Positions 6,413-20,000 of a stretch of 20,000 nucleotides of DNA are shown piece after piece. Source of the stretch: an uncultured virus (IMG/VR IMGVR_UViG_3300025626_000018). Lineage: Duplodnaviria; Heunggongvirae; Uroviricota; Caudoviricetes. A program made the translations under genes and the position numbers. Under the pieces are notes generated by a model. The model was not told the origin of the DNA. It did no database searches and saw only the letters and a list, made by a program, of their open reading frames with translations. Location of the stretch: positions 52,944 through 72,943 of the IMG/VR virus record IMGVR_UViG_3300025626_000018, one strand, 5' to 3'. Each line of letters begins with the position of its first letter. Positions within the stretch are counted from its first letter, which is position 1.

Positions 6413-6928
6413 TTATTTATAATTAGAATATCTTCGCATTCCAATTAATTTTTTTGATGAATATGGGGCAATACTAACTTTATTATTTTGATTACCGCCC
6501 AAAAGTAAATAATATTTTTGCCCTCGAGAATGCCGAATTCCCATAAAAAATCCAACATGACCTTGCCATTTTGCGCCGGGGCGCTCTATTATTATAATAT
6601 CGCCATACCGCAATTCTTCTTCAAGAATTATTTCTCCGTAATTTAAAAATTCTTGTGCTAATAACGGTCGTTTAGAATTAAAATCGTGTAGGTTTGATAT
6701 ATTATTTCTAGCTAAAACCGCATTGATAAATGCTGCGCACCACTCAGTTGTAACCGGGTCAACATTTAAAAATCTTTTTAATTGAACCCGATCTATATTT
6801 TCATTAAGACCAACATAATAAATCGCTTCAGTAAGATTTATAGTATGTTTTGGCTGTTGCCCCAATGTATTAAATATGGAACAGCCAGTACTGAATAAGA
6901 AAATTATAATAAAAAATATATGCTTCAT
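6413..6928 (-). CDS. TIGR02594-like (NlpC/P60/CHAP-clan) peptidoglycan peptidase, lipoprotein
   Basis: EWCAAFINAVL, GHVGFF and LGGNQNNKV motifs; lipobox FSTGC after a hydrophobic leader when started at 6928. Confidence 0.8.
   Translation of the reverse strand: MKHIFFIIIFLFSTGCSIFNTLGQQPKHTINLTEAIYYVGLNENIDRVQLKRFLNVDPVTTEWCAAFINAVLARNNISNLHDFNSKRPLLAQEFLNYGEIILEEELRYGDIIIIERPGAKWQGHVGFFMGIRHSRGQKYYLLLGGNQNNKVSIAPYSSKKLIGMRRYSNYK
6414..6421 (-). promoter_or_regulatory. T4-type late promoter
   Basis: TATTTATA on + (TATAAATA on -), 30 nt upstream of the ATG at 6384. Confidence 0.75.
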
Positions 6929-6933
6929 AAAAA

Positions 6934-6941
6934 TATTTATA
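6934..6941 (-). promoter_or_regulatory. T4-type late promoter
   Basis: TATAAATA on the minus strand with 5 nt between it and the ATG at 6928. Confidence 0.65.
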
Positions 6942-6975
6942 TATAAAATATAGGCTAATAAAATGGAGAATATAA

Positions 6976-7173
6976 ATGCCAAAACCTAAAGGTGATATGA
7001 GTCAAAGAATTAAAAATGCTGGATTTTATAATAAACAACAAGCAAAGTCCACAGAAGCCGGAACAGGCAAATTTAGTGCAATTAAAGCAGCAAAAGCAAA
7101 TCCGCTCGAGGAAATGAAAGAAGCTCTTGCAAAACGAAAAGCACTTAAGAAAAAAACAGCTATAAAAAAATAA
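6976..7173 (+). CDS. Small Lys/Ala-rich hypothetical protein
   Basis: GGAGA RBS; 65 aa, highly basic. Confidence 0.65.
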   Translation: MPKPKGDMSQRIKNAGFYNKQQAKSTEAGTGKFSAIKAAKANPLEEMKEALAKRKALKKKTAIKK

Positions 7174-8695: not shown

Positions 8696-8723
8696 AGTAT
8701 TATTAGATATATTGGAGAATAAA

Positions 8724-9701
8724 ATGGCACATGAGGTAGAAATTGTAAACGGTGTAGCACAGATGGCTTATGCGGGCGAATTGCCATGGCATGGTTTAGG
8801 TGTTCCGGTATCAAACGATCTTACACCTATGCAAATGATGCAAAAGGCTGGTCTTGATTGGGAAGTTGAAAAGGTAGATGCTTTTGTCCGTTGGAAGGGC
8901 GATAATGTTGCCACTGGTCAACAAGCTCTTATTCGCTCAACTGATGGAAAAGTTCTTACTAATGTTGGCGAAAATTGGAATCCAGTCCAAAATGAAGAAG
9001 CCTTTAATTTCTTTGCTGAATATGTTGCGGCCGGTGATATGGAAATGCACACTGCCGGTTCGCTAAAGGGCGGTCAACAAGTGTGGGCTCTTGCAAAAAT
9101 TAAAGAGTCGTTTGATGTATTTGGTAAAGAAGATACTGTTGAATCATATTTGTTGTTTTCAAATCCTCATCAATATGGTAAATCAATTGATATTCGATTT
9201 ACTCCTATTCGTGTTGTTTGTAATAATACTCTTACATTTAGCTTGAACAGCCACGCTGAGCGTTCTGTTAAAGTTGGCCATCGCACAGTGTTTAATGCTG
9301 ATGATGTGAAAACAACATTGGGGCTTGCTTCTGAAAAATTTACTCAGTATAAAGATATGGCTCAGTTTTTAGGCGGCCGTCGTTTTACTGCTGATTCACT
9401 TATTCAGTACTATAGCCAAGTATTTCCATCTACTTCGCGCAAAGATATTGAAACAACGGTGACAAAAAAAGAAGATTTAAGCCGCAATGCGCAAACCGCA
9501 TATGATATGCTTGAAATTCAACCTGGCGCAGAATTTGGTGCTGGAACATGGTGGCAGGCATTTAATTCAGTAACATATGTCACTGACCATCTTCAAGGAC
9601 GAGGAGCTGAAAATCGGTTACACAATCAATGGTTCGGTAATAATCGGTTGCGCAAAATAAAGGCTGCAAATTTGGCCGTTCAAATGGCAACAGCAGCATA
9701 A
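8724..9701 (+). CDS. DUF932 (TIGR03299-like phage/plasmid) protein
   Basis: PWHGLG, AGLDWEV, TAGSLKGG, TPIRVVCNNTL and GTWWQAFNSVT motifs; GGAGA RBS before ATG 8724. Confidence 0.9.
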   Translation: MAHEVEIVNGVAQMAYAGELPWHGLGVPVSNDLTPMQMMQKAGLDWEVEKVDAFVRWKGDNVATGQQALIRSTDGKVLTNVGENWNPVQNEEAFNFFAEYVAAGDMEMHTAGSLKGGQQVWALAKIKESFDVFGKEDTVESYLLFSNPHQYGKSIDIRFTPIRVVCNNTLTFSLNSHAERSVKVGHRTVFNADDVKTTLGLASEKFTQYKDMAQFLGGRRFTADSLIQYYSQVFPSTSRKDIETTVTKKEDLSRNAQTAYDMLEIQPGAEFGAGTWWQAFNSVTYVTDHLQGRGAENRLHNQWFGNNRLRKIKAANLAVQMATAA

Positions 9702-9719
9702 CAAATATATCACATTAAA
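9696..9719 (+). repeat. 24-bp direct repeat, copy 1 (copy 2 at 10061-10084)
   Basis: GCATAACAAATATATCACATTAAA is identical at both sites and includes the stop codon of the upstream gene each time. Confidence 0.9.
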
Positions 9720-9720
9720 G

Positions 9721-9749
9721 AAAAAGATGTCCTTTGGGGCATCTTTTTT
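9721..9749 (+). terminator. Stem-loop/terminator directly upstream of an early promoter
   Basis: AAAAAGATGTCC-TTTG-GGGCATCTTTTT hairpin. Confidence 0.75.
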
Positions 9750-9750
9750 A

Positions 9751-9779
9751 TTTACATTCTCTTTATTATATGGTATAAC
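9751..9779 (+). promoter_or_regulatory. sigma70-like early promoter
   Basis: TTTACA-17 nt-TATAAC with extended TG, followed by TAATATA as in the other copies. Confidence 0.8.
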
Positions 9780-9808
9780 TAATATAGAATGAAACAAAGG
9801 AGCCTATC

Positions 9809-10066
9809 ATGACTATTCAAAAACTTATCGATCAAACATTCAGCTATAGCTTAGAAGCACAAGATGCAGGCCTTGCTGATCTATATCTGGCCGATACGGC
9901 TGATTTTAAGCAGGTGCAGTGGCTGATGAATTCGAATGACATTGACGGCGCTTTAGCAAAAATCGGTAATATGGATACAGAACCACGTGAGCAGATCCTA
10001 TTGGCGATTGCTGAAGAGTATGGTAATGGATATTTAGAAACTGTAATAGGCTATGAGGTGGCATAA
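9809..10066 (+). CDS. Small acidic early protein (DTEPRE motif)
   Basis: AAGGAG RBS; own promoter; similar to the polyprotein module at 19440-19694. Confidence 0.8.
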   Translation: MTIQKLIDQTFSYSLEAQDAGLADLYLADTADFKQVQWLMNSNDIDGALAKIGNMDTEPREQILLAIAEEYGNGYLETVIGYEVA

Positions 10067-10081
10067 CAAATATATCACATT

Positions 10082-10152
10082 AAATAAAAAAATGCACTTT
10101 AGGGGTTTACAATCAGATCTCTACATGGTATAACTAATATATCAAAAGGAGA
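10082..10152 (+). repeat. About 70-bp early promoter + RBS cassette, copy A
   Basis: AAATAAAAAAATGCACTTTAGGGGTTTACAATCAGATCTCTACATGGTATAACTAATATATCAAAAGGAGA; -35 at 10106-10111, -10 at 10129-10134; near-identical to 10511-10583. Confidence 0.9.
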
Positions 10153-10155
10153 TAT

Positions 10156-10341
10156 ATGATGTGGAAAAGATTTTATAAACTCACAGTTACTAACAAAGCT
10201 GGGAAAATTGTTCATACAGGAGAAGAATACTCTGGTTATGCAACTTCTGAAGAGCTTCGGTATCTTGACCGGGAATATCCTGACTGCAAGGTAGAAGCAG
10301 AGTTTATTGAATACGAATTAGAAATGGATGATGGAGCTTAA
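10156..10341 (+). CDS. Small early hypothetical protein
   Basis: Directly downstream of cassette A RBS. Confidence 0.75.
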   Translation: MMWKRFYKLTVTNKAGKIVHTGEEYSGYATSEELRYLDREYPDCKVEAEFIEYELEMDDGA

Positions 10342-10342
10342 T

Positions 10343-10507
10343 ATGACATTAGTTGCTAGTATAATTGGCGCTGTACTTTTCGGTGGAGTTAGTAGTATGT
10401 TTGTTAAGTCCCCTAAATCTCCAGAAGGGGAACTTACTACTCTTGCCTGGGCCCTCGTTGGCGTTATTGCAATGGTAGTACTTTTTAGCCAATTTGGTTT
10501 GGTATAA
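10343..10507 (+). CDS. Small two-TM membrane protein (not in ORF track; start could be 10328 or 10331)
   Basis: MTLVASIIGAVLFGGVSSMFVKSPKSPEGELTTLAWALVGVIAMVVLFSQFGLV*; GGAG upstream. Confidence 0.65.
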   Translation: MTLVASIIGAVLFGGVSSMFVKSPKSPEGELTTLAWALVGVIAMVVLFSQFGLV

Positions 10508-10510
10508 AAA

Positions 10511-10583
10511 AAATAAAAAAAATGCATTTTAGGGGTTTACAATCAGATCTCTATATGATATAACTAATATATCAAAAAGGAGA
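10511..10583 (+). repeat. About 70-bp early promoter + RBS cassette, copy B
   Basis: -35 TTTACA at 10536-10541, -10 TATAAC at 10559-10564; only a few differences from copy A. Confidence 0.9.
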
Positions 10584-10589
10584 AACACT

Positions 10590-10796
10590 ATGCTTACTAC
10601 TTATGGCGCAATGATTAAGAATGACATTATCGAAGCTTTCAATGCTGCGGTGGTTAATCCAGAAAATATCCACGAAGGTGGCGGTATCAATTGGAACTTT
10701 GTTGAGTCTGATATCTTTATTCCACTTGGAGTCTTCTATGATACTGAGTATCTGAATGATTGCATTAGTGTGCTTGTTGATAACCACTTCGCATAA
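10590..10796 (+). CDS. Small acidic early protein (GINWNFV motif)
   Basis: Downstream of cassette B RBS; similar to the first polyprotein module at about 17586-17800. Confidence 0.8.
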   Translation: MLTTYGAMIKNDIIEAFNAAVVNPENIHEGGGINWNFVESDIFIPLGVFYDTEYLNDCISVLVDNHFA

Positions 10797-10812
10797 GGAA
10801 ACTAAAACAAAG

Positions 10813-10934
10813 GACTCTTTTCTGATTATATAGTACGAGCGAAGAACCGTAAAGGTAGGTATGCCCATGGAGCAGAACCCGTAAAATCCTGGTAAGGGAC
10901 TAAGTTAAGACCACTATATAATCAGCAAAGAGTC
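10813..10934 (+). ncRNA. Candidate structured ncRNA 1
   Basis: 10813-10834 pairs with 10913-10934 (21 of 22 bp), enclosing a relatively GC-rich core with small hairpins; no credible ORF. Confidence 0.6.
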
Positions 10935-10945
10935 TAAGACAAGGA

Positions 10946-11101
10946 AAACTATTTCATACATACGTCTGTGTAGAGGCGTTGATCAGCTAAAAGCACTATC
11001 TCGAAAGGGATGTTAGTTTCGATCGAACCAGAGCGGCAATGTCAATAAGGCCGTGCGGGGAGATTGGAGATACTAGCTCGGGCGTATGTATAAAATAGTT
11101 T
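10946..11101 (+). ncRNA. Candidate structured ncRNA 2
   Basis: 10946-10968 pairs with 11079-11101 (23 bp, one C-A mismatch, two G-U); internal ATCTC-GAAA-GGGAT and GCGGC/GCCGT hairpins. Confidence 0.65.
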
Positions 11102-11130
11102 CAAACGAAGATAAAAAAGTAAAAAAAGTG

Positions 11131-11159
11131 TGTACATTTTCTTTCTTTTATGTTATAAA
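11131..11159 (+). promoter_or_regulatory. sigma70-like early promoter
   Basis: TGTACA-17 nt-TATAAA with extended TG and A-tracts upstream. Confidence 0.6.
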
Positions 11160-11197
11160 TGTATATACAATGAAATGAAGCAAAGGGAAGAATCATT

Positions 11198-11368
11198 ATG
11201 AATTATTATACAAAACAAATCATGTCTATCCTTGATTGTAATCAAGCTTTTGCGCGGCTCATTCAAGATGAAATGGAGTATTCCGGTTTTGATTTTTCTG
11301 AAGCTACCGAAACTGAATTTCAACAAGAAGTTCAATATGCAGTAGATGTAGTAAGTGGTGTAGCATAA
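11198..11368 (+). CDS. Small acidic early protein (56 aa, not in ORF track)
   Basis: MNYYTKQIMSILDCNQAFARLIQDEMEYSGFDFSEATETEFQQEVQYAVDVVSGVA*; purine-rich RBS and promoter upstream. Confidence 0.7.
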   Translation: MNYYTKQIMSILDCNQAFARLIQDEMEYSGFDFSEATETEFQQEVQYAVDVVSGVA

Positions 11369-11370
11369 GA

Positions 11371-11559
11371 ATGACAATTTTTTCAACAGGTTCAATTAAT
11401 ACTGTAAATCATTGGATGGTCGGTACTAAATGGCAATATGCCAAAGGTATTGTTACTATGCATGATAATGGCTTTTCGTGTTCATGTAAAAAGAACCCTC
11501 GCAAACAGTGCACCCATATTCAGAATGTTAAACTAAGAATATTGGGTGTATTTCAATAA
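11371..11559 (+). CDS. SWIM-like zinc-finger protein
   Basis: FSCSC-x7-CTH (CxC..CxH) motif. Confidence 0.7.
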   Translation: MTIFSTGSINTVNHWMVGTKWQYAKGIVTMHDNGFSCSCKKNPRKQCTHIQNVKLRILGVFQ

Positions 11560-11625
11560 ATGCCACTAAAATAACGCATTTTATAAGTTTTTTTAAAAAT
11601 TAATTAATTAATTGTGTTTAGGGGG

Positions 11626-11654
11626 TTTACATTCGTTTTAAACTATGCTATAAA
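11626..11654 (+). promoter_or_regulatory. sigma70-like early promoter
   Basis: GGGGG-TTTACA-17 nt-TATAAA with extended TG; same TTTAGGGG(G)TTTACA context as cassettes A and B. Confidence 0.75.
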
Positions 11655-11688
11655 GAGGTATAAAATGAAAGCAAATAAGGATAGCGCA

Positions 11689-11841
11689 ATGTGGTATGTA
11701 GAAGCAATAATGAATTGGCAAACTCAGGAAACTGAGCGTTGGGAATATATTAGTGAAGAATGTGCAAAAGAGCTTCACTTAAAATACTATGACATGTTTG
11801 TACCATCAGTTAAAAGCGGAGTAATGAAATCATGCAAGTAG
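11689..11841 (+). CDS. Small hypothetical protein (alternative start 11665)
   Basis: AAGGA RBS before ATG 11689; downstream of the promoter. Confidence 0.6.
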   Translation: MWYVEAIMNWQTQETERWEYISEECAKELHLKYYDMFVPSVKSGVMKSCK

Positions 11842-12158
11842 TAAATAAAAGATATTCGGATTCTTATATTGGAACTTTTGAAAAAACCGCCGAAGATTCA
11901 AAAAGAATTGCAGATATTCGTAACATGGTAATTACTATGAATAAAGATTTAGCTCGTCATGGTGCTACACAGCGTTTTTATGTAAAATTGCAAGGCCGCA
12001 CAAAAAATCGCTATGAAAAAGTTAAAGACTATTATGCAAATAAACATCCATATATTAGCGAATCTGATCTTGTACGATTTGTAAAATCTCGAGTGCGTTG
12101 CTCAATACCGCTTGAGTTTGCAGAAAGACTTGATCTTTATATTTATGAAAAAACCTAA
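11832..12158 (+). CDS. Hypothetical protein
   Basis: 108-aa ORF with GGAG upstream, ending just before the terminator. Confidence 0.7.
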   Translation: MQVVNKRYSDSYIGTFEKTAEDSKRIADIRNMVITMNKDLARHGATQRFYVKLQGRTKNRYEKVKDYYANKHPYISESDLVRFVKSRVRCSIPLEFAERLDLYIYEKT

Positions 12159-12163
12159 AAATA

Positions 12164-12196
12164 AAAGCCCCCAACACATTAAGTATTGGGGGCTTT
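12164..12196 (+). terminator. Terminator hairpin closing the early region
   Basis: AAAGCCCCCAA...TTGGGGGCTTT inverted repeat. Confidence 0.8.
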
Positions 12197-12210
12197 ATAA
12201 TATTTTTTTA

Positions 12211-12218
12211 TATAAATA
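12211..12218 (+). promoter_or_regulatory. T4-type late promoter
   Basis: Perfect TATAAATA after the terminator, upstream of ORF 12250. Confidence 0.8.
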
Positions 12219-12249
12219 ATACTAATAAGTTTATTAGTGGAAAAAAATA

Positions 12250-13002
12250 ATGGATACTAGTCAATTAAATTCCGAGTTTCTTAATAGAGCTATGGTACGG
12301 ACCTCATTTAATTTAATTGCAAAAGATTTTGAATCTTTGACTTATAAAAAAGAAATTCAACATCTTTTTCATTTACATTTTTTTCCAAAATTTAATAATA
12401 GCAATGATGTTCATATAGATCGAATTACTGCGTCAGCTCTTAAAAAAGCAATTAAAACTGCACGGAATATAGATATCCGTAACTTCGAAGCATTATATAA
12501 GTATAATATTAAAGGGGTAGGACCCGGTGAAGTTATGCTATATTTTATTTTGAATAATGGACATTTGGGTGGAGGCTCTTCGGCCGGAGTTGATATTGTG
12601 GATGCAGCAGGAAGCTTTGAAGTTAAAGCTGTTGATTATTCGGCTAATGGTAAATATGTTAATAATTTTAAAATTGGGGGAACATTTTCTATTGCTGAAA
12701 TTATTCGCGGGATTCAAGATTTAAAAAAAGATGCTGGATTAGGAAGTGGATCCGAAGTTAATAGCGGACAACTTGATATAATAAGAAAACAATTTCCGGC
12801 GCAGCTTAAAGACCTTGAAGATGAATTTGTAGATCTAAGTTATAAAAATTATTTTAAAAATCATAAAATTATTTTTTTAGCTAATAAAACTGGCGCCGGA
12901 TTTTCTCTTGGGGACCTTATTGAAATTAAACTGGTTCAAAAGAAAGATATTATCTTAGAAAGAATAACTTCTGGCACAATTAAACCTAGGGTAAAAATGT
13001 AA
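12250..13002 (+). CDS. Hypothetical protein, possible PD-(D/E)xK nuclease fold
   Basis: GVGPGEV...GVDIV....FEVKA pattern (E..D..ExK). Confidence 0.5.
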   Translation: MDTSQLNSEFLNRAMVRTSFNLIAKDFESLTYKKEIQHLFHLHFFPKFNNSNDVHIDRITASALKKAIKTARNIDIRNFEALYKYNIKGVGPGEVMLYFILNNGHLGGGSSAGVDIVDAAGSFEVKAVDYSANGKYVNNFKIGGTFSIAEIIRGIQDLKKDAGLGSGSEVNSGQLDIIRKQFPAQLKDLEDEFVDLSYKNYFKNHKIIFLANKTGAGFSLGDLIEIKLVQKKDIILERITSGTIKPRVKM

Positions 13003-13016
13003 AGAGGGAATTATAA

Positions 13017-13805
13017 ATGGCACAGTATAGCGTTAGTAGACAAAATCCACTTCATGCTGGAAATAATGATATTCATGAAGTGATTATGATGGCTGATAAA
13101 AATGGTAATATACTTAACGGCAATGGAAATGTTGGTAATATTCCACTTGCAGCCGGTTTAATTGCTAATTATAATCATATTAATAAATTTGGTGCTACTC
13201 CGGGCGATATAACAGCAGGCAGTATTTGGGACGGTAATACTGGAAGCAGTACTTATGTATTTCCGACTGTTCCATCTGTAATTTCTGTTGTTTCAACACA
13301 AAATTCTGGTGCGAGTGTTTTTATTCAAGGATTAGATGAAAATTATAATGATCAAAGTGAAACTATTCCTATTGGTTCAACTGGGGTAAAAACTTTTCTT
13401 AGAGTTTATAGAGCATATATGGTTGATATTAATAATGATGCTAACGTTATTATTAGTATTGGAGCCACAACCGCCGCGCAGATTACTGCAAATGAAGCTC
13501 AAACCTTAATGGCTATTTATACAGTACCCGCTGGTAAAACTGCTTATATGCTTTCATTAAGATTTGGTTCATCAAAGGCTAGTACTAATTCGGCTATGAA
13601 ATACACACTAAGACAAAGAACTTTTCAAGATGGCGGAATTTTCCGAAATAAAGGAACATATTTCGCAGCCGGCGGGCAAAACACATTTATTGAATACCCA
13701 ATACCATTAGTATTTGCAGAAAAAAGTGATATTCGTGTAGATGCTGTTGCTGCTCAACAAACAGAAGTAAATGCTTCTTTTGATCTTATACTAATAAACA
13801 ATTAA
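13017..13805 (+). CDS. Beta-rich late protein, possibly virion structural
   Basis: HINKFG, IQGLDENY and YTVPAGKTAY motifs recalled from phage hypotheticals; lies in the late operon. Confidence 0.55.
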   Translation: MAQYSVSRQNPLHAGNNDIHEVIMMADKNGNILNGNGNVGNIPLAAGLIANYNHINKFGATPGDITAGSIWDGNTGSSTYVFPTVPSVISVVSTQNSGASVFIQGLDENYNDQSETIPIGSTGVKTFLRVYRAYMVDINNDANVIISIGATTAAQITANEAQTLMAIYTVPAGKTAYMLSLRFGSSKASTNSAMKYTLRQRTFQDGGIFRNKGTYFAAGGQNTFIEYPIPLVFAEKSDIRVDAVAAQQTEVNASFDLILINN

Positions 13806-13837
13806 ACATACATTATAATACGGATAATATTTAAAAT

Positions 13838-15067
13838 ATGGAAAACTTTAAATCTTTCATTGCTGAAAACAAAAATACTCACATGACACACCTTGAAGAT
13901 AAGGTGATTTATGGTGGTGTTAATGGTACTCGTCAAGCTATTATGGCTTTGCGCGAATTGCGTAATATGTTAAAGGGCGAACATGACGGGAAAATATCTG
14001 TTAAATGGGATGGAGCACCAGCAGTATTTGCTGGCATTGATCCAGCTGATGGCAAATTTTTTGTTGCTAAAAAGGGTATTTTTAATAAAAATCCAAAAGT
14101 ATATAAAACTCCAGGTGAGGTAGATGCAGATACTTCAGGCGATTTAGCTATAAAGCTTAAGCAAGCCTTACAATATTTACCCGAATTGGGAATTACTGAA
14201 GTTATTCAGGGCGATTTTTTATACGGCCCAGGCGATCTTAGTAATGAAACTATTGCTGGTGAAAAATATATCACCTTCCATCCAAATACTATTGTTTATG
14301 CTGTACCAGCTAATACAGTATCATCAAAAGAAATTTTAGCATCTAAAATTGGTATTGTTTGGCATACTACATATAAAGGTAATACATTTGAAACTATGAA
14401 AGCTTCATATGGTGTTAATGTTTCTCGTCTTAAAAAATCAAAAAATGTTTGGTCGCAAGATGCTATGCTTCGTGATATGACAAATCTTACTATGAATAAG
14501 TCTGATTCCGATATAGTAAATGACTATTTAACTCAAGCTGGAAAATTATTTAATAAAATTTCGGGGGGCGTTTTACGCACCTTAGAAGCTAATACTGATT
14601 TAACACAATTAATAGAGCAACATTCAAATTCTTATGTACGGGCAGGCCAAATGCCCCCGGATCCAGCCAAAAGAGTAACGGCACTTATTAAATTTATTGA
14701 AGCAAAATTCCAAAAAGAAATGGATAAGCTTAAAACTGAAAAAGGTAAGGGGCGCAAACAAGATAAACTGAATGATATTTTATCATTTTTTTCGGCTAAT
14801 AATAAAAATAATTTGATAACTATGTTCGAATTGCAGAAAGTTATTGTCTTAGCGAAATTAAAACTTATAAATATACTTGATAGGATAAATAAAGTAAAGA
14901 CTTTTGTAAAAACTAAAAATGGTTTTAAAACAACGGGTCAAGAAGGTTATGTAGCAATTGATAGACTGGGTAGTGACGCTGTAAAGATTGTTGATAGATT
15001 AGAATTTTCATACAACAACTTTTCGCCAGATATTATTAAAGGATGGGATAAGCCAGGGAGAAGTTAA
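13838..15067 (+). CDS. DUF6267-like protein; ATP-dependent ligase-type nucleotidyltransferase motifs; capsid-targeting-like N-terminus
   Basis: HMTHLED, KWDGAP (KxDG), QGDFLY, EGYV and AVKIVDR motifs; N-terminus MENFKSFIAE. Confidence 0.75.
   Translation: MENFKSFIAENKNTHMTHLEDKVIYGGVNGTRQAIMALRELRNMLKGEHDGKISVKWDGAPAVFAGIDPADGKFFVAKKGIFNKNPKVYKTPGEVDADTSGDLAIKLKQALQYLPELGITEVIQGDFLYGPGDLSNETIAGEKYITFHPNTIVYAVPANTVSSKEILASKIGIVWHTTYKGNTFETMKASYGVNVSRLKKSKNVWSQDAMLRDMTNLTMNKSDSDIVNDYLTQAGKLFNKISGGVLRTLEANTDLTQLIEQHSNSYVRAGQMPPDPAKRVTALIKFIEAKFQKEMDKLKTEKGKGRKQDKLNDILSFFSANNKNNLITMFELQKVIVLAKLKLINILDRINKVKTFVKTKNGFKTTGQEGYVAIDRLGSDAVKIVDRLEFSYNNFSPDIIKGWDKPGRS
14866..14873 (+). promoter_or_regulatory. 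Possible internal T4 late promoter
   Basis: TATAAATA inside the upstream CDS, about 190 nt before ORF 15067. Confidence 0.4.
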
Positions 15068-15513
15068 TGATTAGATTTAAAGATCTAAGAGTTGTAGATA
15101 TGCGTGATGGAGAACCAGACGAAGTTCAACATCAAGCACATAGAGCAAAAAGAACTAGCGTTGATGAAGGCCCAGACGAGGCGCTGAATATTCAACAGCG
15201 ATTAGCTCGCGGCCGTAGTATGAAACGTAATAAAGCTAAATTAAAAATGGGGCGCAACCGCGCCGCACGTCGTACTGCCAATAAAGATGTGTTAAAAAAA
15301 CGTGCACGTAAAGCAGCCCGTAATATTATTCTTAAAAAACTTACAAAAGATATTCCGAAAAGTGATATGTCAGTTGCTCGTAAAATGGAATTAGAAAAAC
15401 GGCTTGAGAAAATGGGCTCAAGAATAGATCGCATTGCTGTAAAATTGCTTCCAAAAATGCGTCAAGCTGAAAAAGATAGAAAACAGCATAAGGCACAATC
15501 TAAAAATGGTTAA
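15067..15513 (+). CDS. Highly basic Arg/Lys-rich protein, putative internal head protein
   Basis: Acidic leader ending SVDEGPDEA, then a very basic helical region. Confidence 0.7.
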   Translation: MIRFKDLRVVDMRDGEPDEVQHQAHRAKRTSVDEGPDEALNIQQRLARGRSMKRNKAKLKMGRNRAARRTANKDVLKKRARKAARNIILKKLTKDIPKSDMSVARKMELEKRLEKMGSRIDRIAVKLLPKMRQAEKDRKQHKAQSKNG

Positions 15514-16708
15514 TTCTTTTAAACAATACATTATTGAAGAAGACCAAATAGTATATTTTACTTTTGGTAGATTAAATCCACCTACTGTTGGTCATGGTAA
15601 ATTATTAAATAAACTAGCCAAAACCGCTGGCCGTTTGCCGTATAAAATCTTTTTATCTCAATCTCAGGATAAAAAAGATAATCCTTTGAAATACGCGGAT
15701 AAGGTAAAGCATGTGCGAAAAATGTTTCCAAAACATGCCCGCAATATTTTAATTAATAAAAAAATTATTAATCCTTTTTTTGCATTAGCTTATCTTTATG
15801 AGCAGGGTTTCCGTAAAGTTATTATGGTAGCCGGTAGTGATAGAGTGGATGAATATAAAATTAGATTAAATAAATATAATGGAGTTGATTCTACTCACGG
15901 ATTTTATAATTTTAATGGTGGGGTTCAGGTAATATCGGCCGGTATGCGAGATGCTGATAGCGATGGCCCAGACGGTGCGTCTGGAACTAAGCAGCGTAAA
16001 TTTGCCACAGAGAATAATTTCACAAAATTTTATGAAGGTCTTCCTACTTCAATGAGTAATTCTGATGCAAAAAAACTTTTTAATGATGTGCGTAAAGGCA
16101 TGGGATTAAAAGAAGAAACCGAATTTAAACGTCACATTCAATTAGAATCTATTTCTGATATTAGAGAGCAATATGTAAAGGGTGATTTGTATTCTATAGG
16201 CGAAGAAATTATTATTACTGAAACAAGCGAGGTTGGTATTATTGCAACCCTTGGCCCAAATTATGTAATTGTTGAAACTTCATCCGGAAAATCTAGACAA
16301 TGGCTTGATAGAATTGAAAAAATTGAAGAAAAAACAACTACTACCCAAGATCCCGATATTGCGGACCGTGATGGGGCGCAGCCTAAAAAGTATTTTGCTG
16401 GAATAAAGAACAAGTCTACAAAAATTGCTAGAGACCAACATTTTAAAAAGAATGCTAAAAAGGCTGATAATAATCCCGATGCTTATAAAAAAGCACCAGG
16501 CGATGCCACTGCAAAAACTAAGCCAAGTAAGCACACTAAACGATTTGCACAAATGTTTGGCGATACCGACGAAGAAATTGATTATATTGATAAAGTAAAT
16601 GATAGAATTAATAGAGAAAAAAGAGCAGATAAAATCAAATTTGATGCAATGCGAGATCGCGCGCGAACTTTACAAACACGTTCAACAAATAGATCGACAA
16701 AGCCATGA
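15506..16708 (+). CDS. Cytidylyltransferase-like (HIGH-superfamily) nucleotidyltransferase with extra C-terminal modules
   Basis: FTFGRLNPPTVGH, NPL, VAGSDRV, SAGMRD and SGTKQR motifs; N-terminus MVNSFKQYIIEE; C-terminal PKKYFAG...TKPSKHTKRF module. Confidence 0.85.
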   Translation: MVNSFKQYIIEEDQIVYFTFGRLNPPTVGHGKLLNKLAKTAGRLPYKIFLSQSQDKKDNPLKYADKVKHVRKMFPKHARNILINKKIINPFFALAYLYEQGFRKVIMVAGSDRVDEYKIRLNKYNGVDSTHGFYNFNGGVQVISAGMRDADSDGPDGASGTKQRKFATENNFTKFYEGLPTSMSNSDAKKLFNDVRKGMGLKEETEFKRHIQLESISDIREQYVKGDLYSIGEEIIITETSEVGIIATLGPNYVIVETSSGKSRQWLDRIEKIEEKTTTTQDPDIADRDGAQPKKYFAGIKNKSTKIARDQHFKKNAKKADNNPDAYKKAPGDATAKTKPSKHTKRFAQMFGDTDEEIDYIDKVNDRINREKRADKIKFDAMRDRARTLQTRSTNRSTKP

Positions 16709-16953
16709 AAACTTTTAAACAATTTAATGAAAATACTAAAGCACTTAAAAATAAAGCGGAAAAATCTGGAATGCCATTAAGTGTTTTACGTAGTGTATAT
16801 AACCGCGGTGTAGCGGCTTGGAAAACCGGTCATAGACCTGGAACCACTCCTGAACAATGGGGATTTGCTAGGGTTAATTCGTTTACTACAAAATCTCCGG
16901 GCACATGGGGCAAAGCCGATAAAGATTTAGCGGATAAAGTAAGAGGCAAGTAA
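16705..16953 (+). CDS. DUF5824-like small protein with capsid-targeting-like N-terminus
   Basis: VYNRGVAAWKTGHRPGTTPEQWGFARVNSF; N-terminus MKTFKQFNE. Confidence 0.75.
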   Translation: MKTFKQFNENTKALKNKAEKSGMPLSVLRSVYNRGVAAWKTGHRPGTTPEQWGFARVNSFTTKSPGTWGKADKDLADKVRGK

Positions 16954-16954
16954 A

Positions 16955-17575
16955 ATGGCAGTTAAATCAGCAGATAGAAAACCAGAAAAATATATTGGTC
17001 CAGACGGTAAGGTAAGAATTCGTATGGTTCCGGTTGATAAAGAAGTTGTTAAGAGTGAAAAAGCGTTTAAAGAAATGCGTAGTAAATATTCTAAGCGCGA
17101 ACCCATGAAAAAAGTAAAACCTATGGGTGAAGCCAAAGATCCTGAAGAGTATGATAAAGAAGGTGATATGGCTAAGACACAACTCAAGACAATGATTGAC
17201 GCTGCCCAAGAACTACACGATCAATTGTCTGATGATGAGAACATGCCTGAATGGGTACAGAATAAGATTACTAAAGCTACAGATTATATCGATTCAGTGC
17301 GTGATTATATGAAAAATAATGATGACGTCAATGAAGAGACTATTGATGAAGTTCTAGATCGTCCAGGCGCATTGGATAGCTATAGAAAAAAAGCTAAAAT
17401 GAAAAGTGATAAGGCTCGTAATACTGCAACAGCTAAACTTCTTCGCGGCAATCCTGAAATTTCAAAAGAAAAAGAAACTATTCGTAAGCGTGAAAAGGGC
17501 CAAGACATGTCTGATAGAGTTGGTGTTAAACAATTCCGTAAATCAATCGGTAGAGGTTACAATGGAAAATCGTAA
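16955..17575 (+). CDS. Modular hypothetical protein, putative internal head protein
   Basis: EGDMAKTQL...MPEWVQNKITKATDYIDSV domain flanked by MGE|A and IDE|V type sites. Confidence 0.7.
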   Translation: MAVKSADRKPEKYIGPDGKVRIRMVPVDKEVVKSEKAFKEMRSKYSKREPMKKVKPMGEAKDPEEYDKEGDMAKTQLKTMIDAAQELHDQLSDDENMPEWVQNKITKATDYIDSVRDYMKNNDDVNEETIDEVLDRPGALDSYRKKAKMKSDKARNTATAKLLRGNPEISKEKETIRKREKGQDMSDRVGVKQFRKSIGRGYNGKS

Positions 17576-20000
17576 TTTGCAAGAGGCTTCTCTTAATAAA
17601 TCTAATATTGAAAAACACATAAAAAAGTCTTTAAAAGATAAGGCTAATTATAATAAAGATGGTTCAATTAATTGGGATCTTGTTAATGATGATGTTATGA
17701 TGGCAATGCCTTCGGCCGCCGAAAATGAAAAAACTTATACTAAACTATTCAATTCCGCGGCCGATAAAATGGATAAATCTATGTCACGTAAAGAAAATAC
17801 CGAAGAGTCTATGCAATTAACAAAAAATGCTATAACAAAATCTGGCAATTCAAATGTTATGAAATCTTTTAAGATAAGCAAGCTTAAAAATGATCTTGCA
17901 GCACTTCGTAAAAATTTAAAACAGCCAAATCCAGGATCACCAAAGCGTGGCTCAGCTTATGAAGCAAAAACCGAAATTAAAAAAGGTGATACTGTTCGTT
18001 TAAAAAAGAAATACGCTGACGGACCAGCCGAAGCTAAAATGGATTATATTGTAAAAGAATTAAGAGGACCGCGAGTTCTTATTGCCCCAAAAGTATGGAA
18101 AAGTGGTGGAATTGTTCCAACGGAATCTGTACAAATGTATATGATTGAAAAGCCTGCAATGGCAGAAGCTACCACAGAAATTACACAAATTAAAGGATTA
18201 ACTGAAATGACCGACAAACATTCTGCTATTTTCGATAAGTTAAAGAAAAATGATAATGTAAAAATTAAATTTGATTCAACGTTATCTAAAGGTGGAGATT
18301 TTGTCGAATATAAAGTTTTATCAAAAACAACCGTTTTAAAAGGTAAGCCTTCCGAACAAGAAAAAATTACTCTTCAAGCAAAATCTGGTGGTGTTAAATC
18401 TTTCTTACGTAGAAAAAAGGACGGTAAAATTACCTTTGCTATTGGCGATTTAGGTGCAAGTCTTATCGATATGAAAGAAGGTATTGAATATGTAGATGAA
18501 GCTAAATTACCAGCTAAAAAGATTATTAAAGATCTTGAAGCCAAAATGTCTATTGATGTCATTGTTGGTAAATATATTGACAAGCGTTCTAGTAATAGAG
18601 ATGCAATCTTAAAAATTATCCGCGATTATAATTGGAATAAATTTAAACAAAATATAAACAGCGAAACCGATAAGGGCGATGAGGCTATTTCTGAAGCTAA
18701 AACCGGTCAAATCCGTATTATAGATTTGTCGAATGCCCACCCTGATAACAGAGCCGGCGCTAAAGCAAAATCCGGGTTTCAGGTTCAAAAGTTTTCTGGT
18801 GGCAAATTTGTTAATCAAGGTGCCCCATATTCATCTAAAGCCGCAGCCGAAAAGGTTCGTGGCAGTGGCCAACATACTATGCAATTTGAATCGCTTGACG
18901 AAGCCGTTTTACGGGATCGCGATTATGAAGTAAAAAATAATAAAGTTTATATTTCAAAAGCTAACTTTAAAAAAATTCACAAAGATTTTAAAATTGCTCG
19001 TAAAGGTGATGAAATGATGATGGTTAATGGTGGGTCTAAAGGATCCATCCTTGTTCCAGTTGAATTTACCGAATCTGTTGAGGAGGCTCGGCAGTTAAAA
19101 AATCCTAAAACCGAAGTCATGGTTGTAGATAAAGCCGGCAAAACTATTGTTATTGATAAGACTAAACAAAAAGAATATCTTGCAAAGGGTTGGAAGCTTG
19201 CTGAATCTGTTAATGAAACAACCACGCCGATGAGAAACAGATTTGGTCCAGCAGTAGATTCTAAAAAGTTTGATGCATATAAAAAGCATATGAAAGCCAA
19301 TAAATTAGACGAACCAACAGTTCGCATGGCTCATCAAAATCCAGATGATGCTGAGTCAAAGCGAATGATGAAAAACCCAGCATATTCTAAAGGTTTAGAA
19401 TTGTACAAAGCCTCAATAAGAGAATCGAATCTTGATGAAGCTACAATGTCACGTGTTGCAAAAGAACTTGAAGATTATGCCCGTAAACATGGCGGCATTG
19501 ATAAGATGGACTTTATAAAAGCTGCTATGATGATGAAGAAAGGTCAAACAGCACAACTGAAGAAGTTTGTCGATGACTTAGACACAGAGCCACGTGAAAA
19601 AATTCTTTCTTTATTAGATAAAGACGCAGACCGCCGCAAAGAATACAAAGCATTTCAGAAAAATATACGTAATGAAGAAATTGAACTTGATGAAGGCGTA
19701 AAAGAAAGAGCAGTAAAGGCCCTAATGACAAAGGCTCTTGGTGGTAAAAGAGCAAAAGCCGGAACAACTTCTCGTATTGCTGATAACGGCGATTTTATTG
19801 TTACAGATGGGGGTGGACGTATTATTGGCCGCTTAAAGGCCGATAGCTTTACTAATCCGCTAGAAGAGGCTGCTGGTACCAGTGCTAAATACAAAGATAA
19901 TAAAGGTCTATTTGGCGGTAAATATACCTCCAGTGATCGGGCCGCAGCAATGTCTGGCAAAAAATTTATTGATTGGCGTAATAAAAAGCAATCAAAAAAT
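17562..20000 (+). CDS. Large modular Lys-rich protein (at least 813 aa, runs off the window); putative protease-processed internal head polyprotein
   Basis: Manual translation from ATG 17562 (AGAGG RBS), MENRNLQEASLNK..., is open to 20000 with no stop; about 12 recurring [LIVM]-x-E|[A/G/T/M]-like linker sites. Confidence 0.85.
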   Translation, partial: MENRNLQEASLNKSNIEKHIKKSLKDKANYNKDGSINWDLVNDDVMMAMPSAAENEKTYTKLFNSAADKMDKSMSRKENTEESMQLTKNAITKSGNSNVMKSFKISKLKNDLAALRKNLKQPNPGSPKRGSAYEAKTEIKKGDTVRLKKKYADGPAEAKMDYIVKELRGPRVLIAPKVWKSGGIVPTESVQMYMIEKPAMAEATTEITQIKGLTEMTDKHSAIFDKLKKNDNVKIKFDSTLSKGGDFVEYKVLSKTTVLKGKPSEQEKITLQAKSGGVKSFLRRKKDGKITFAIGDLGASLIDMKEGIEYVDEAKLPAKKIIKDLEAKMSIDVIVGKYIDKRSSNRDAILKIIRDYNWNKFKQNINSETDKGDEAISEAKTGQIRIIDLSNAHPDNRAGAKAKSGFQVQKFSGGKFVNQGAPYSSKAAAEKVRGSGQHTMQFESLDEAVLRDRDYEVKNNKVYISKANFKKIHKDFKIARKGDEMMMVNGGSKGSILVPVEFTESVEEARQLKNPKTEVMVVDKAGKTIVIDKTKQKEYLAKGWKLAESVNETTTPMRNRFGPAVDSKKFDAYKKHMKANKLDEPTVRMAHQNPDDAESKRMMKNPAYSKGLELYKASIRESNLDEATMSRVAKELEDYARKHGGIDKMDFIKAAMMMKKGQTAQLKKFVDDLDTEPREKILSLLDKDADRRKEYKAFQKNIRNEEIELDEGVKERAVKALMTKALGGKRAKAGTTSRIADNGDFIVTDGGGRIIGRLKADSFTNPLEEAAGTSAKYKDNKGLFGGKYTSSDRAAAMSGKKFIDWRNKKQSKN

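What the first reader, a model, noticed from the sequence alone, without database searches (positions are those of the whole stretch)
9809..19694. Polyprotein module 19440-19694 has a stand-alone early-gene counterpart (9809-10066)
Seen: ungapped alignment of early ADTADFKQVQWLMNSNDIDGALAKIGNMDTEPREQILLAI with module IDKMDFIKAAMMMKKGQTAQLKKFVDDLDTEPREKILSLL. D..DF, M, DTEPRE and IL are shared, with exactly 22 residues between DF and DTEPRE in both. The early copy is acidic and has its own sigma70 promoter. The module is Lys-rich and bounded by NLDE|A and ELDE|G. Inference: the same domain is deployed twice, pre-made in the virion and again from an early promoter. Early host-takeover or anti-defence genes may be recruited into the packaged polyprotein and become basic to suit the DNA-filled capsid.
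Basis: partly seen in the sequence, partly recalled or inferred. Interest (0 to 1): 0.9.

Follow-up and report, generated by a model that had tools for sequence, protein, structure and literature searches.

The report
One phage domain, free and polyprotein-embedded
A marine T4-like phage carries the same small helical domain twice, as an acidic stand-alone gene with an early-type promoter and as a basic segment of a large late multi-module protein that looks built to be cut up and packed in the head, a pattern like T4's packaged and early-made enzyme pairs.

Summary
ORF 9809-10066 (85 aa) and segment 19440-19694 of the large ORF (ATG 17562, runs off the contig) are true, anciently diverged homologues. 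Evidence: pairwise BLASTP E 3e-5; profile-profile probability 97%, E about 3e-11; score 57 against a maximum of 21 in 200 column shuffles; each family's HMM finds the other in 5 of 5 related phage records; both predicted folds have helices in the same order.

The domain family is large (430 clusters at E<=0.001), unnamed, and has no Pfam or PDB match. It splits on one well-supported branch into an acidic free-standing subfamily and a basic, polyprotein-embedded subfamily.

The contig is a 72.9-kb fragment of a T4-like marine myovirus that encodes a T4-type prohead protease.
- The small gene sits in a terminator/early-promoter cassette array.
- The big ORF ends an operon behind a TATAAATA late motif.
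- Its modules are joined by K-E-E-V-E-L-D-E linkers, enriched about 7-fold, which fit cleavage after L-x-E.
- Neighbouring genes begin with T4-like capsid-targeting sequences.

Packaging, cleavage, expression timing and function are all inferred, not shown. The idea that early genes are repeatedly recruited into the polyprotein is not supported. The closest precedent is T4 Alt versus ModA/ModB.

The parts
9720..9749 (+). Hairpin (13 pairs) plus T-run after the DUF932 gene; the terminator half of a PeSL-like terminator/early-promoter cassette
9751..9779 (+). Sigma-70-like early promoter TTTACA-N17-TGG-TATAAC. Four more copies of the cassette start at 10106, 10536, 11131 and 11626
9797..9802 (+). 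Shine-Dalgarno AAGGAG, 6 nt before the ATG
   Evidence: read from the sequence
9809..10066 (+). Stand-alone acidic DTEPRE-domain gene (85 aa). It has 104 homologues, and its predicted five-helix bundle scores pLDDT 91
9974..9991 (+). Codons of DTEPRE (residues 56-61), at the N-terminal cap of predicted helix 4. The motif is invariant in 30 of 30 aligned family members
12164..12196 (.). Strong hairpin (14 pairs, 7 G-C) that closes the small-gene region
12211..12218 (+). T4-type late-promoter motif TATAAATA, 32 nt before the first gene (12250) of the operon that ends in the large ORF
13838..15067 (+). Operon gene (DUF6267). Its N-terminus MENFKSFIAE resembles the T4 capsid-targeting sequence
15067..15513 (+). 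Operon gene (148 aa, Arg/Lys-rich). Its sequence occurs as an internal module of a polyprotein in record G007
15506..16708 (+). Operon gene, nucleotidyltransferase-like, starting MVNSFKQYIIE. Its C-terminal part is a module of polyproteins P0127 and P0130, and the nucleotidyltransferase part heads P0164
16705..16953 (+). Operon gene (DUF5824, 82 aa, starting MKTFKQFNE). The same domain is an internal module of polyproteins in other phages
16955..17575 (+). Operon gene (206 aa). Its central part is the N-terminal module of P0158
17562..20000 (+). Large Lys-rich multi-module ORF (813 aa visible, pI 9.6, net charge +46), cut by the contig end. It equals the first 813 of 952 residues of P0108, with 3 differences
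17577..17585 (+). L-Q-E of MENRNLQE|A, a candidate N-terminal processing site
   Evidence: T4 rule
19431..19439 (+). L-D-E of SNLDE|A, the candidate protease site upstream of the module
19440..19694 (+). Basic DTEPRE-domain module (85 aa). It has 66 longer homologues, and its predicted four-helix model scores pLDDT 88.5
19581..19598 (+). Codons of DTEPRE in the module (residue 674 of the ORF)
19686..19694 (+). L-D-E of EEIELDE|G, the candidate protease site downstream of the module. It matches the family linker logo K-E-E-V-E-L-D-E

Best explanation
The 85-aa ORF and the module are old paralogues of one unnamed all-helical domain of about 80 residues. Its hallmarks are a Tyr in helix 1, D-x-x-D-F at the start of helix 2 and, 22 residues later, D-T-E-P-R-E capping helix 4.

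Shown:
- The two are homologous.
- The family has two subfamilies, one acidic and free-standing, the other basic and embedded.
- The host is a T4-like marine myovirus with a T4-type prohead protease.

Inferred:
1. The large ORF is made late, as the last gene of an operon behind TATAAATA.
2. It enters the prohead, like its neighbours that carry capsid-targeting-like N-termini.
3. The prohead protease cuts it after the Glu of the (K-E-E-V-E-)L-D-E linkers into basic proteins of roughly 8-25 kDa.
4. These stay with the DNA and enter the cell with it, as T4's internal proteins and Alt do. The DTEPRE module would be one such product, present at time zero.
5. The acidic paralogue is transcribed minutes later from a sigma-70-like early promoter inside a mobile terminator/promoter cassette.

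I take the domain to be a non-catalytic binding module. It is small and helical, with no enzyme-like match. The conserved motif surface probably contacts the same or a related partner in both forms, and the charge is adapted to where each form resides: basic beside packaged DNA, acidic in the cytoplasm. My odds: homology about 0.95; cleaved and packaged polyprotein about 0.6; early expression of the free gene about 0.7; same target in two waves about 0.3.
For: Homology:
- Pairwise BLASTP E 3e-5.
- hhalign probability 97.1-97.3%, E 6.9e-11 and 2.7e-11.
- Observed score 57.1 against shuffles of mean 10.2 and max 20.7. With the motif columns deleted the score is still 21.6, against a maximum of 19.6.
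- The module HMM finds the small gene in 5 of 5 records (E 3.3e-7 to 9.3e-5). The small-gene HMM finds the embedded module in 5 of 5 other records (E 3.3e-9 to 1.1e-7).
- MAFFT aligns both families end to end. D29, D56, T57, E58, P59 and R60 are invariant, and Y13, F33, E61 and I63 are at least 90% conserved.
- The AF2 models have helices at 3-20, 23-41, 45-53, 57-71, 73-80 (small) and 4-17, 19-33, 37-46, 49-84 (module). These match in order, and the helices within the aligned core correspond at its offset of 8.

Two subfamilies:
- Of the best 150 representatives, 43 are 135 aa or shorter (38 acidic, 4 basic) and 107 are long.
- One branch with support 100 separates 131 short sequences from 139 long plus 2 short basic ones.

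Phage type: portal, gp21-like protease, scaffold, major capsid protein, sheath, tube, gp55, gp43/44/45/62, RegA and UvsX are present. The capsid protein is 60-66% identical to those of Melnitz, HTVC008M and C48C1.

Late operon: TATAAATA at 12211, with the same motif before the sheath, prohead-core and tube-like genes. Gene ends overlap or abut. Only two weak 7-pair hairpins lie on the + strand.

Cleavage logic:
- L[DE]E occurs 226 times in 41,210 aa of 66 homologues, against 34.2 +/- 5.5 in shuffles.
- Its density is 5.78 per 1000 aa in the window ORF, against 0.83 in the other + strand ORFs.
- Homology breakpoints lie within 10 aa of such a site 24.0% of the time, against 12.9% for random positions.
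- The phage's own capsid propeptide carries I-T-E at the position expected for its cleavage.
- The T4 CTS is MKTYQEFIAE, with processing determined by residues 8 and 10 (passages read).
- A loose CTS pattern hits 4 of 96 contig ORFs: the major capsid protein and three genes of this operon.

Early promoter: the pattern occurs 11 times on the + strand, 10 of them just before an SD and ATG, including gp55, gp45 and UvsX. A -35/-10 pair lies upstream of the small gene in 16 of 27 distinct related loci.
Against: - There is no direct evidence that the large ORF is cleaved, packaged or injected.
- No cultured phage in 50,697 records carries either form, so no published virion proteome can be consulted.
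- The N-terminus of the window polyprotein (MENRNLQE) has L-x-E but lacks the aromatic residues at positions 4 and 7 that target T4 internal proteins. Only 23 of 133 distinct N-termini of long family members fit even a loose CTS pattern, though many of those are fragments.
- The breakpoint enrichment at L[DE]E is only about two-fold. Glu-rich helical linkers could serve as spacers without being cut.
- The promoters are consensus matches. The general scan finds no more sigma-70-like sites than shuffles do.
- The two forms do not always co-occur. A 91%-complete 182.7-kb record has only the module, and four fragments have only the free gene. They therefore need not act together.
- DTEPRE sits at a helix N-cap, so part of its conservation could be purely structural.
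- No fold or family match hints at a function.
Confidence: 0.6

Rival explanations
1. The two are homologous, but the large ORF is an ordinary intracellular multi-domain late protein. On this view the Glu-rich K-E-E-V-E-L-D-E stretches are flexible or helical spacers that are never cut, and nothing is packaged.
For: There are no proteomic or cleavage data. The window ORF's N-terminus is only weakly CTS-like. Homology breakpoints are only about 2-fold enriched at the sites. The C-terminal linker region of the module model has lower confidence (pLDDT 77 falling to 60), as any flexible spacer would.
Against: A spacer need not keep an exact L-[DE]-E core followed by A, G or N (logo, 148 distinct sites). 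That core matches the cleavage rule of the protease this genome encodes. Modules occur as separate genes in one phage and fused in another, which fits products that work as separate proteins. The operon has a late motif, and three of its genes have CTS-like starts.
Confidence: 0.25
2. The domain is shared, but the two subfamilies have long had unrelated roles. DTEPRE and D..DF would then be conserved only because they cap helices and hold the fold together, and 'deployed twice' carries no functional meaning.
For: DTEPRE starts helix 4 in both models. The split is old and clean. Co-occurrence is not obligatory. The charges are opposite. In distant free members the motif relaxes to D-T-x-x-R-E.
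Against: Six consecutive residues are invariant across both subfamilies at about 20% overall identity. That is more than a capping box usually needs, since Arg and the second Glu are not capping positions.
Confidence: 0.3
3. The acidic early protein is a partner or antagonist of the injected basic module. It would pair with the module, or compete for its target, and so switch off an effector that is only wanted in the first minutes.
For: The two have opposite charges and the same fold. Both are present in the one 100%-complete record examined.
Against: The free gene occurs without a detectable module in 4 of 5 records, and the module without the free gene in a 91%-complete genome.
Confidence: 0.1
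4. The similarity is a chance or convergent short motif with no common ancestry.
For: The pairwise alignment is short (36 residues, 33% identity) and dominated by one hexapeptide.
Against: The profile comparison, the shuffle controls, the motif-deleted control in the same register, the reciprocal HMM detection in 10 of 10 records, and the matching helix order all argue against it.
Confidence: 0.03

Closest known systems
T4 Alt versus ModA/ModB (paralogous ADP-ribosyltransferases)
   Same: One fold is used twice in a T4-type phage. One paralogue is made late, processed by the prohead protease, packed in the head and injected with the DNA. The other paralogues are made from early genes after entry (passages of PMC5512222 read; Alt cleavage in a figure legend of PMC9026906).
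   Different: Here the domain is a small helical module with no enzyme signature. The packaged copy is one segment of a multi-module protein rather than a single-domain protein. Packaging is inferred only.
T4 internal proteins IPI-III with a capsid-targeting sequence
   Same: They are basic and non-essential. They are targeted to the prohead core by an N-terminal peptide of about 10 residues that is removed by gp21, and they are injected and highly diverse between phages (passages). Window ORF 13838 starts MENFKSFIAE, against the T4 sequence MKTYQEFIAE.
   Different: The T4 proteins are cut once. Here many modules are strung together with internal sites. There is no sequence similarity to IPI-III, which I did not search for directly.
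Polyvalent proteins of phages and conjugative elements (Iyer et al. 2017, PMC5512222)
   Same: They are large proteins with many unrelated domains in shifting combinations, predicted to be packaged and delivered. Some of their domains also occur as stand-alone phage genes. Homologues here combine the module with PF06414/PF13671 kinase-like, PF01467 and PF19141 domains.
   Different: Those proteins typically carry their own peptidase and MuF, portal or T4SS contexts. Here no embedded peptidase was found in the visible part, and release would depend on the trans-acting prohead protease. The paper's one occurrence of the term T4-like, in the passages I read, concerns ADP-ribosyltransferases rather than a polyprotein of this kind.
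Ejection proteins of giant phages (phiKZ, 201phi2-1, SPN3US) processed by a gp21-like protease
   Same: Many head-internal proteins are cut after Glu at a short motif by a diverged gp21 homologue, often at several sites (passages).
   Different: Their motif is S/A-x-E rather than L-[DE]-E, and those proteins are separate genes rather than a shuffled module string.
PeSL terminator/early-promoter cassettes of T4-like phages (PMC2839356, search listing only; PMC4122927, abstract read)
   Same: The free gene is flanked by repeated stem-loop plus early-promoter units, five promoter copies between 9751 and 11653. Its neighbours differ from phage to phage, as expected in hyperplastic regions.
   Different: The cassette sequence here is specific to this phage group. 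I did not compare it with published PeSL sequences.

Membership tests
DTEPRE-domain family (unnamed; defined here by alignment A3) | Significant match of both window sequences to one profile | tested here: met
   The A3 profile finds exactly two places in the own contig, with E 2.1e-34 (small gene) and 2.4e-28 (module). Cross-family hhalign gives 97%.
DTEPRE-domain family (unnamed) | D-x-x-D-F, then 22 residues, then D-T-E-P-R-E | tested here: met
   Both window copies have it. DTEPR is present in 97 of 104 small and 64 of 66 long homologues.
DTEPRE-domain family (unnamed) | Same predicted fold in both forms | tested here: inconclusive
   The helices agree in order and broadly in position.
T4-type packaged internal/ejection proteins | A T4-type prohead protease is encoded by the phage | tested here: met
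   phrog_207, E 5.9e-78, at contig 10451-11104.
T4-type packaged internal/ejection proteins | N-terminal capsid-targeting sequence with a cleavage site | tested here: inconclusive
   The window polyprotein starts MENRNLQE (L-x-E only). Neighbouring ORFs 13838, 15506 and 16705, and homologue P0111 (MKTFKNLIAE), are CTS-like.
T4-type packaged internal/ejection proteins | Basic protein made late | tested here: met
   pI 9.6 and net charge +46. A TATAAATA motif heads the operon. Timing itself is inferred.
T4-type packaged internal/ejection proteins | Presence in virions and cleavage by the protease | not testable with these tools
   This needs virion mass spectrometry or an in vitro assay.
Polyvalent proteins (Iyer et al. 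2017) | Several unrelated domains in one polypeptide, in variable combinations | tested here: met
   Homologues of 253-1172 aa carry different Pfam sets. Modules are shuffled between them.
Polyvalent proteins (Iyer et al. 2017) | Embedded peptidase domain that releases the parts | tested here: not met
   No Pfam or PHROG family was found in the 814 visible residues. The last 139 residues, seen in P0108, were not scanned.
Any Pfam family | Score above the curated cut-off | tested here: not met
   0 of 18 module rows and 0 of 30 small rows reach a cut-off. The weak shared hit is MgtE_N, in 5 of 18 and 2 of 30 rows.
Uteroglobin/secretoglobin | Significant sequence match to one uteroglobin unit and a matching fold | tested here: inconclusive
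   E 6.4e-7 was obtained only against engineered tandem fusions. Each copy scores 15 bits with independent E 0.13-0.18 over 28 residues. Uteroglobin is not among the rows shown by the Foldseek or VIA searches.
PeSL cassette | Stem-loop directly followed by an early promoter, repeated between small genes | tested here: met
   A hairpin at 9720-9749 is followed by the promoter at 9751-9779. There are five promoter copies. The stem-loop is clear only for the first copy.

The most novel reading that the evidence does not exclude
Marine T4-like phages (the pelagiphage/Melnitz-like group) carry a hypervariable 'effector string'. This would be a late operon whose genes fuse and split freely into polyproteins. 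The prohead protease would cut these at K-E-E-V-E-L-D-E linkers into a cocktail of basic proteins that are injected with the DNA. For at least one module, the DTEPRE domain, the phage also keeps an acidic cytoplasmic paralogue on an early mobile cassette. The same host or phage target would then be engaged first by a delivered protein and afterwards by a newly made one, or the delivered protein would be neutralised by the new one.
Probability: 0.3. Interest if true: 0.8.

Novelty: new variant of a known kind. Interest (0 to 1): 0.6.

Why it matters
If the inferred parts hold, abundant ocean phages deliver a shuffled set of pre-made proteins. They would be released from polyproteins by the head protease, a route to effector diversity not described for T4-like phages in the papers I could search. 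The DTEPRE domain would give a clean test case, because one fold exists in a packaged form and an early-expressed form. It could show how proteins adapt to life inside a DNA-filled capsid (the charge switches from about -12 to +4) and whether phages back up injected factors with early genes, as T4 does with Alt and ModA/ModB. The family has at least 430 clusters and no annotation, so naming it would also annotate many metagenomic proteins.

Tried and rejected
- megablast of window 9000-20000 against phage records: no match.
- tblastn of the small protein and of the module against 50,697 phage records. The small protein gave one chance-level hit (E 0.8, a Xanthomonas phage coat protein). The module gave nothing.
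- tblastn with full-length P0108 found only a different module (residues 147-306) in Melnitz phages and C48C1. The Melnitz region is annotated only as hypothetical proteins.
- PHROGs and Pfam on both sequences: nothing.
- Foldseek against PDB for both models and against BFVD for the small model: no match at E<=0.001.
- VIA wide search: best Z 7.1, to designed helical bundles, within the range the tool calls uninformative for helical proteins.
- PDB sequence search with the small-family profile: best E 0.37.
- Uteroglobin hit of the module profile: rejected as evidence, because the E-value comes from two copies in an engineered fusion. Each copy alone has E about 0.15.
- Weak sub-threshold Pfam hits (Ins_allergen_rp E 6.7e-4 at 20 bits against a cut-off of 23.2; MgtE_N): noted only as leads.
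- ESM Atlas: best score 0.77, below the level the tool treats as meaningful.
- Complex prediction of module plus small protein: no verdict (score 0.06, mark 0.32). This is neither for nor against binding.
- A strict CTS pattern matched only 2 of 133 N-termini. I then used a looser one and report both.
- P0277 in the representative search is a spurious repeat protein.
- Earlier notes of this scan: none for this genome.
- Literature searches: 'DTEPRE' found 0 papers. DUF5824/DUF6267/PF19141/PF19782 found 0 papers. Polyprotein plus prohead-protease term sets found 9 and 3 papers, none listed as being on marine T4-like phages.
- An MazG-like metal-site reading of D-x-x-D and E-x-x-E was considered. 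It was dropped for lack of any supporting match.

Full report
**What the window is**

The window is the last 20 kb of a 72,943-base linear contig with 33.6% G+C. CheckV rates the contig 43% complete. PHROG scans of the rest of the contig find a full T4-type gene set:
- portal, prohead protease (phrog_207, E 5.9e-78), scaffold and major capsid protein;
- sheath, tube and neck proteins;
- the late sigma factor gp55;
- DNA polymerase, clamp and clamp loader, RegA and UvsX.

The capsid protein is 60-66% identical to those of phage C48C1, the Methylophilales phage Melnitz and Pelagibacter phage HTVC008M. The host is therefore a T4-like marine myovirus.

**Checking the observation**

The two translations are exactly as quoted. 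BLASTP aligns residues 29-64 of the 85-aa ORF with 21-56 of the module, with 12 of 36 identical and no gaps. It gives E 3e-5 for the pair and 7e-4 against the whole open frame. Taken alone, this would be borderline once one allows for a reader comparing everything in the window with everything else. The family data settle it.

The small ORF has 104 homologues of 47-110 aa. In an alignment of 30 of them, D56-T57-E58-P59-R60-E61 is invariant, as are D29 and F33. DTEPR is present in 97 of all 104. The module has 66 homologues inside proteins of 253-1172 aa, and 64 of them carry DTEPR.

Profile-profile comparison of the two families gives probability 97.1% and E 6.9e-11 in my script. The tool's own run gives 97.3% and E 2.7e-11, over 53-54 columns.

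Two hundred column shuffles of the module alignment score 10.2 +/- 2.2, with a maximum of 20.7, against 57.1 observed. After deleting the six motif columns from both alignments, the same register still scores 21.6, above all 200 shuffles (maximum 19.6).

The two HMMs also find each other. The module HMM picks out the small gene in 5 of 5 related virus records (E 3.3e-7 to 9.3e-5 per record). The small-gene HMM picks out the embedded module in 5 of 5 other records (E 3.3e-9 to 1.1e-7).

A joint MAFFT alignment runs end to end. A conserved Tyr sits in helix 1. The small family has an eight-residue insertion. In the more divergent modules the C-terminal G-x(4)-E-x(3)-G-x-x-V pattern of the small family reappears.

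AlphaFold2 models are confident for both, with pLDDT 91.1 and 88.5. The helices come in the same order, and those within the aligned core correspond at its offset of 8. I could not superpose the models because their coordinates are not exposed.

**The family**

A search of 1.84 billion representatives with the joint profile finds 430 clusters at E<=0.001 and 134 at E<=1e-10. At least one, P0277, is a spurious repeat protein.

Of the best 150 representatives, 43 are 135 aa or shorter and 107 are longer. Of the short ones, 38 are acidic and 4 basic.

On a FastTree of 272 distinct domain sequences (133 from short proteins, 139 from long), the short/long label changes only 3 times. One branch with support 100 puts 131 short sequences on one side. 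On the other side are all 139 long sequences plus two short basic proteins, at least one of which looks like a polyprotein fragment. No rows were dropped other than identical duplicates and domains covering fewer than 65 of the 84 profile positions.

The free and embedded forms are therefore two old subfamilies. They are not the result of repeated recruitment. The charge contrast is general: median net charge is -12 (n=102) for the free form and +4 (n=44) for the module.

The family has no name. Neither form reaches a Pfam cut-off, no PHROG matches, and no solved or predicted viral structure matches convincingly. No paper in the searchable library contains 'DTEPRE'.

**The free gene's setting**

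Directly after the DUF932 gene (8712-9701) come three elements: a hairpin with a T-run at 9720-9749, then TTTACA-N17-TGG-TATAAC at 9751-9779, then AAGGAG and the ATG.

The promoter unit recurs at 10106, 10536, 11131 and 11626, each before a small ORF. This is the layout described for PeSL terminator/early-promoter cassettes in T4-like hyperplastic regions (abstract of PMC4122927; PMC2839356 seen only in the search listing).

Across the contig, the pattern TTTAC[AT]-N16-18-TA[TC]AA[TC] occurs 11 times on the + strand. Ten of these lie just upstream of an SD and ATG, including the genes for gp55, the clamp and UvsX. TATAAATA, in contrast, precedes the sheath, a prohead-core-like gene and a tube-like gene.

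In related phages the small gene has different neighbours. A -35/-10 pair lies 25-40 nt before it in 16 of 27 distinct upstream regions by a strict pattern. 'Early' is thus a reasoned inference, not a measurement.

**The large ORF's setting**

Its ATG at 17562 overlaps the end of the preceding gene. Back to 12250 the genes abut or overlap. Between them there are only two weak + strand hairpins. TATAAATA lies at 12211, just after a strong hairpin.

The visible 813 residues equal the first 813 of the 952-aa P0108, with three differences. About 139 residues therefore lie beyond the contig end.

Homologues are mosaics. The same modules appear in different orders and combinations, and some carry PF06414/PF13671 kinase-like, PF01467 or PF19141 domains.

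Four separate genes of the window's operon are internal modules of polyproteins elsewhere:
- the Arg/Lys-rich 148-aa gene;
- the tail of the nucleotidyltransferase-like gene;
- DUF5824;
- the 206-aa gene.

Free gene versus module is therefore a general feature of this locus. The DTEPRE pair differs in being distant paralogues in different temporal settings.

**Are the linkers cleavage sites?**

L-[DE]-E occurs 226 times in 41,210 residues of the 66 homologues, against 34.2 +/- 5.5 in shuffles (maximum 51 of 200). The 148 distinct sites give the logo K-E-E-V-E-L-D-E followed by A, G or N.

In the window ORF the density is 5.78 per 1000 aa, against 0.83 in the other + strand ORFs. Internal ends of pairwise alignments between homologues lie within 10 residues of such a site in 24.0% of 4,418 cases, against 12.9% for random positions (maximum 14.3% of 100 trials). 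That enrichment is real but modest.

That T4 gp21 cleaves after Glu in L/I-x-E is textbook knowledge that I recall. The passages I read say that processing of the capsid-targeting sequence MKTYQEFIAE depends on residues 8 and 10, and that related proteases cut after Glu at a short motif.

This phage's capsid propeptide carries I-T-E where cleavage is expected. A loose pattern for a capsid-targeting-like start hits 4 of 96 ORFs of the contig: the major capsid protein and window ORFs 13838 (MENFKSFIAE), 15506 and 16705. It also hits 23 of 133 distinct N-termini of long family members, many of which are fragments. A stricter pattern hit only 2 of 133. The window polyprotein itself starts MENRNLQE, which has only the L-x-E.

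**Mechanism**

The best reading has four steps.
1. The late operon supplies head-targeted proteins.
2. The prohead protease cuts the polyprotein at the L-[DE]-E linkers.
3. The basic pieces, including the 85-residue DTEPRE module, stay with the DNA and are injected.
4. The acidic paralogue is made early from its own promoter.

Homology and the two-subfamily structure are shown. Every other step is inferred. The domain's function is unknown. I take it to be a small binding module whose conserved D..DF and DTEPRE surface contacts a similar partner in both forms.

**Co-occurrence**

The own contig has exactly two copies. A 100%-complete 221-kb record has both forms. Its free copy has MDTSARED and again sits beside a DUF932 gene. 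A 91%-complete record has only the module. Four incomplete records have only the free gene, and a fifth has both.

**Comparison with what is known**

The logic matches T4 Alt (packaged, cleaved, injected) and its early-expressed paralogues ModA and ModB. It also matches the T4 internal proteins with their targeting peptide.

The architecture resembles the 'polyvalent proteins' of Iyer et al. That paper notes that some domains occur both fused and alone. Those proteins, however, carry their own peptidase, and in the passages I read the T4-like mention does not concern a polyprotein of this kind. Giant-phage ejection proteins are cut by a gp21 relative at a different motif.

I found no paper describing prohead-protease-type linkers in polyproteins of marine T4-like phages. 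Subscription journals are not covered by that library.

**Verdict**

The 'deployed twice' idea is plausible and has a clear T4 precedent. 'Packaged', 'early' and 'anti-defence' remain to be shown. Recurrent recruitment is not supported.

Noticed in passing
window 9696-11653: There is an array of five promoter cassettes (TTTACA-N17-TATAAC/TATAA), starting at 9751, 10106, 10536, 11131 and 11626. Each precedes a small ORF. The first two also share the upstream 44-nt unit (9696-9739 and 10061-10104). The layout is PeSL-like and marks a hyperplastic early region.
   Followed up: partly
window 13838-17575: Four separate genes upstream of the large ORF occur as internal modules of polyproteins in other phages (P0127, P0130, P0158, P0164, record G007). 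They are the 148-aa Arg/Lys-rich gene, the C-terminus of the nucleotidyltransferase-like gene, DUF5824 and the 206-aa gene. Gene fusion and fission at this locus is rampant.
   Followed up: partly
window 13838, 15506, 16705; contig 12243: A loose capsid-targeting-like N-terminal pattern picks out only the major capsid protein and these three operon genes among the contig's 96 + strand ORFs.
   Followed up: partly
L001:2365-3366 and L001:3913-5037: The large terminase subunit matches fall in two separate ORFs about 550 nt apart. The gene may be split or interrupted by an intron, intein or homing element, or it may be frameshifted.
   Followed up: no
L003:11042-11485 and L003:11478-11891: Two adjacent overlapping ORFs match the first half (positions 2-123) and the second half (124-228) of the same kinase family, phrog_10255. 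This is either a split gene or a frameshift.
   Followed up: no
P0174 (564 aa, metagenomic homologue): One polyprotein carries two DTEPRD modules (at residues 194 and 432), so the module also duplicates within a single polyprotein.
   Followed up: no
L135:1426-1755 (record G007): The free paralogue in a complete 221-kb genome has MDTSARED in place of DTEPRE. It lies directly upstream of a DUF932 gene. In the window the DUF932 gene (8712-9701) lies directly upstream of the small gene. L043-L045 also place the two together.
   Followed up: partly
module residues 36-63 (window about 19545-19628): A 28-residue stretch resembles helix 3, the turn and helix 4 of uteroglobin (about 15 bits per copy, independent E about 0.15). 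This is probably convergence of amphipathic helices.
   Followed up: yes
window 6413-6982 and 5617-6384, minus strand: Two minus-strand genes, one matching a baseplate-hub/tail-lysozyme family, each have a TATAAATA motif on their own strand (at 6941 and 6421). The first motif lies inside the listed ORF, so the true start is probably further downstream.
   Followed up: no
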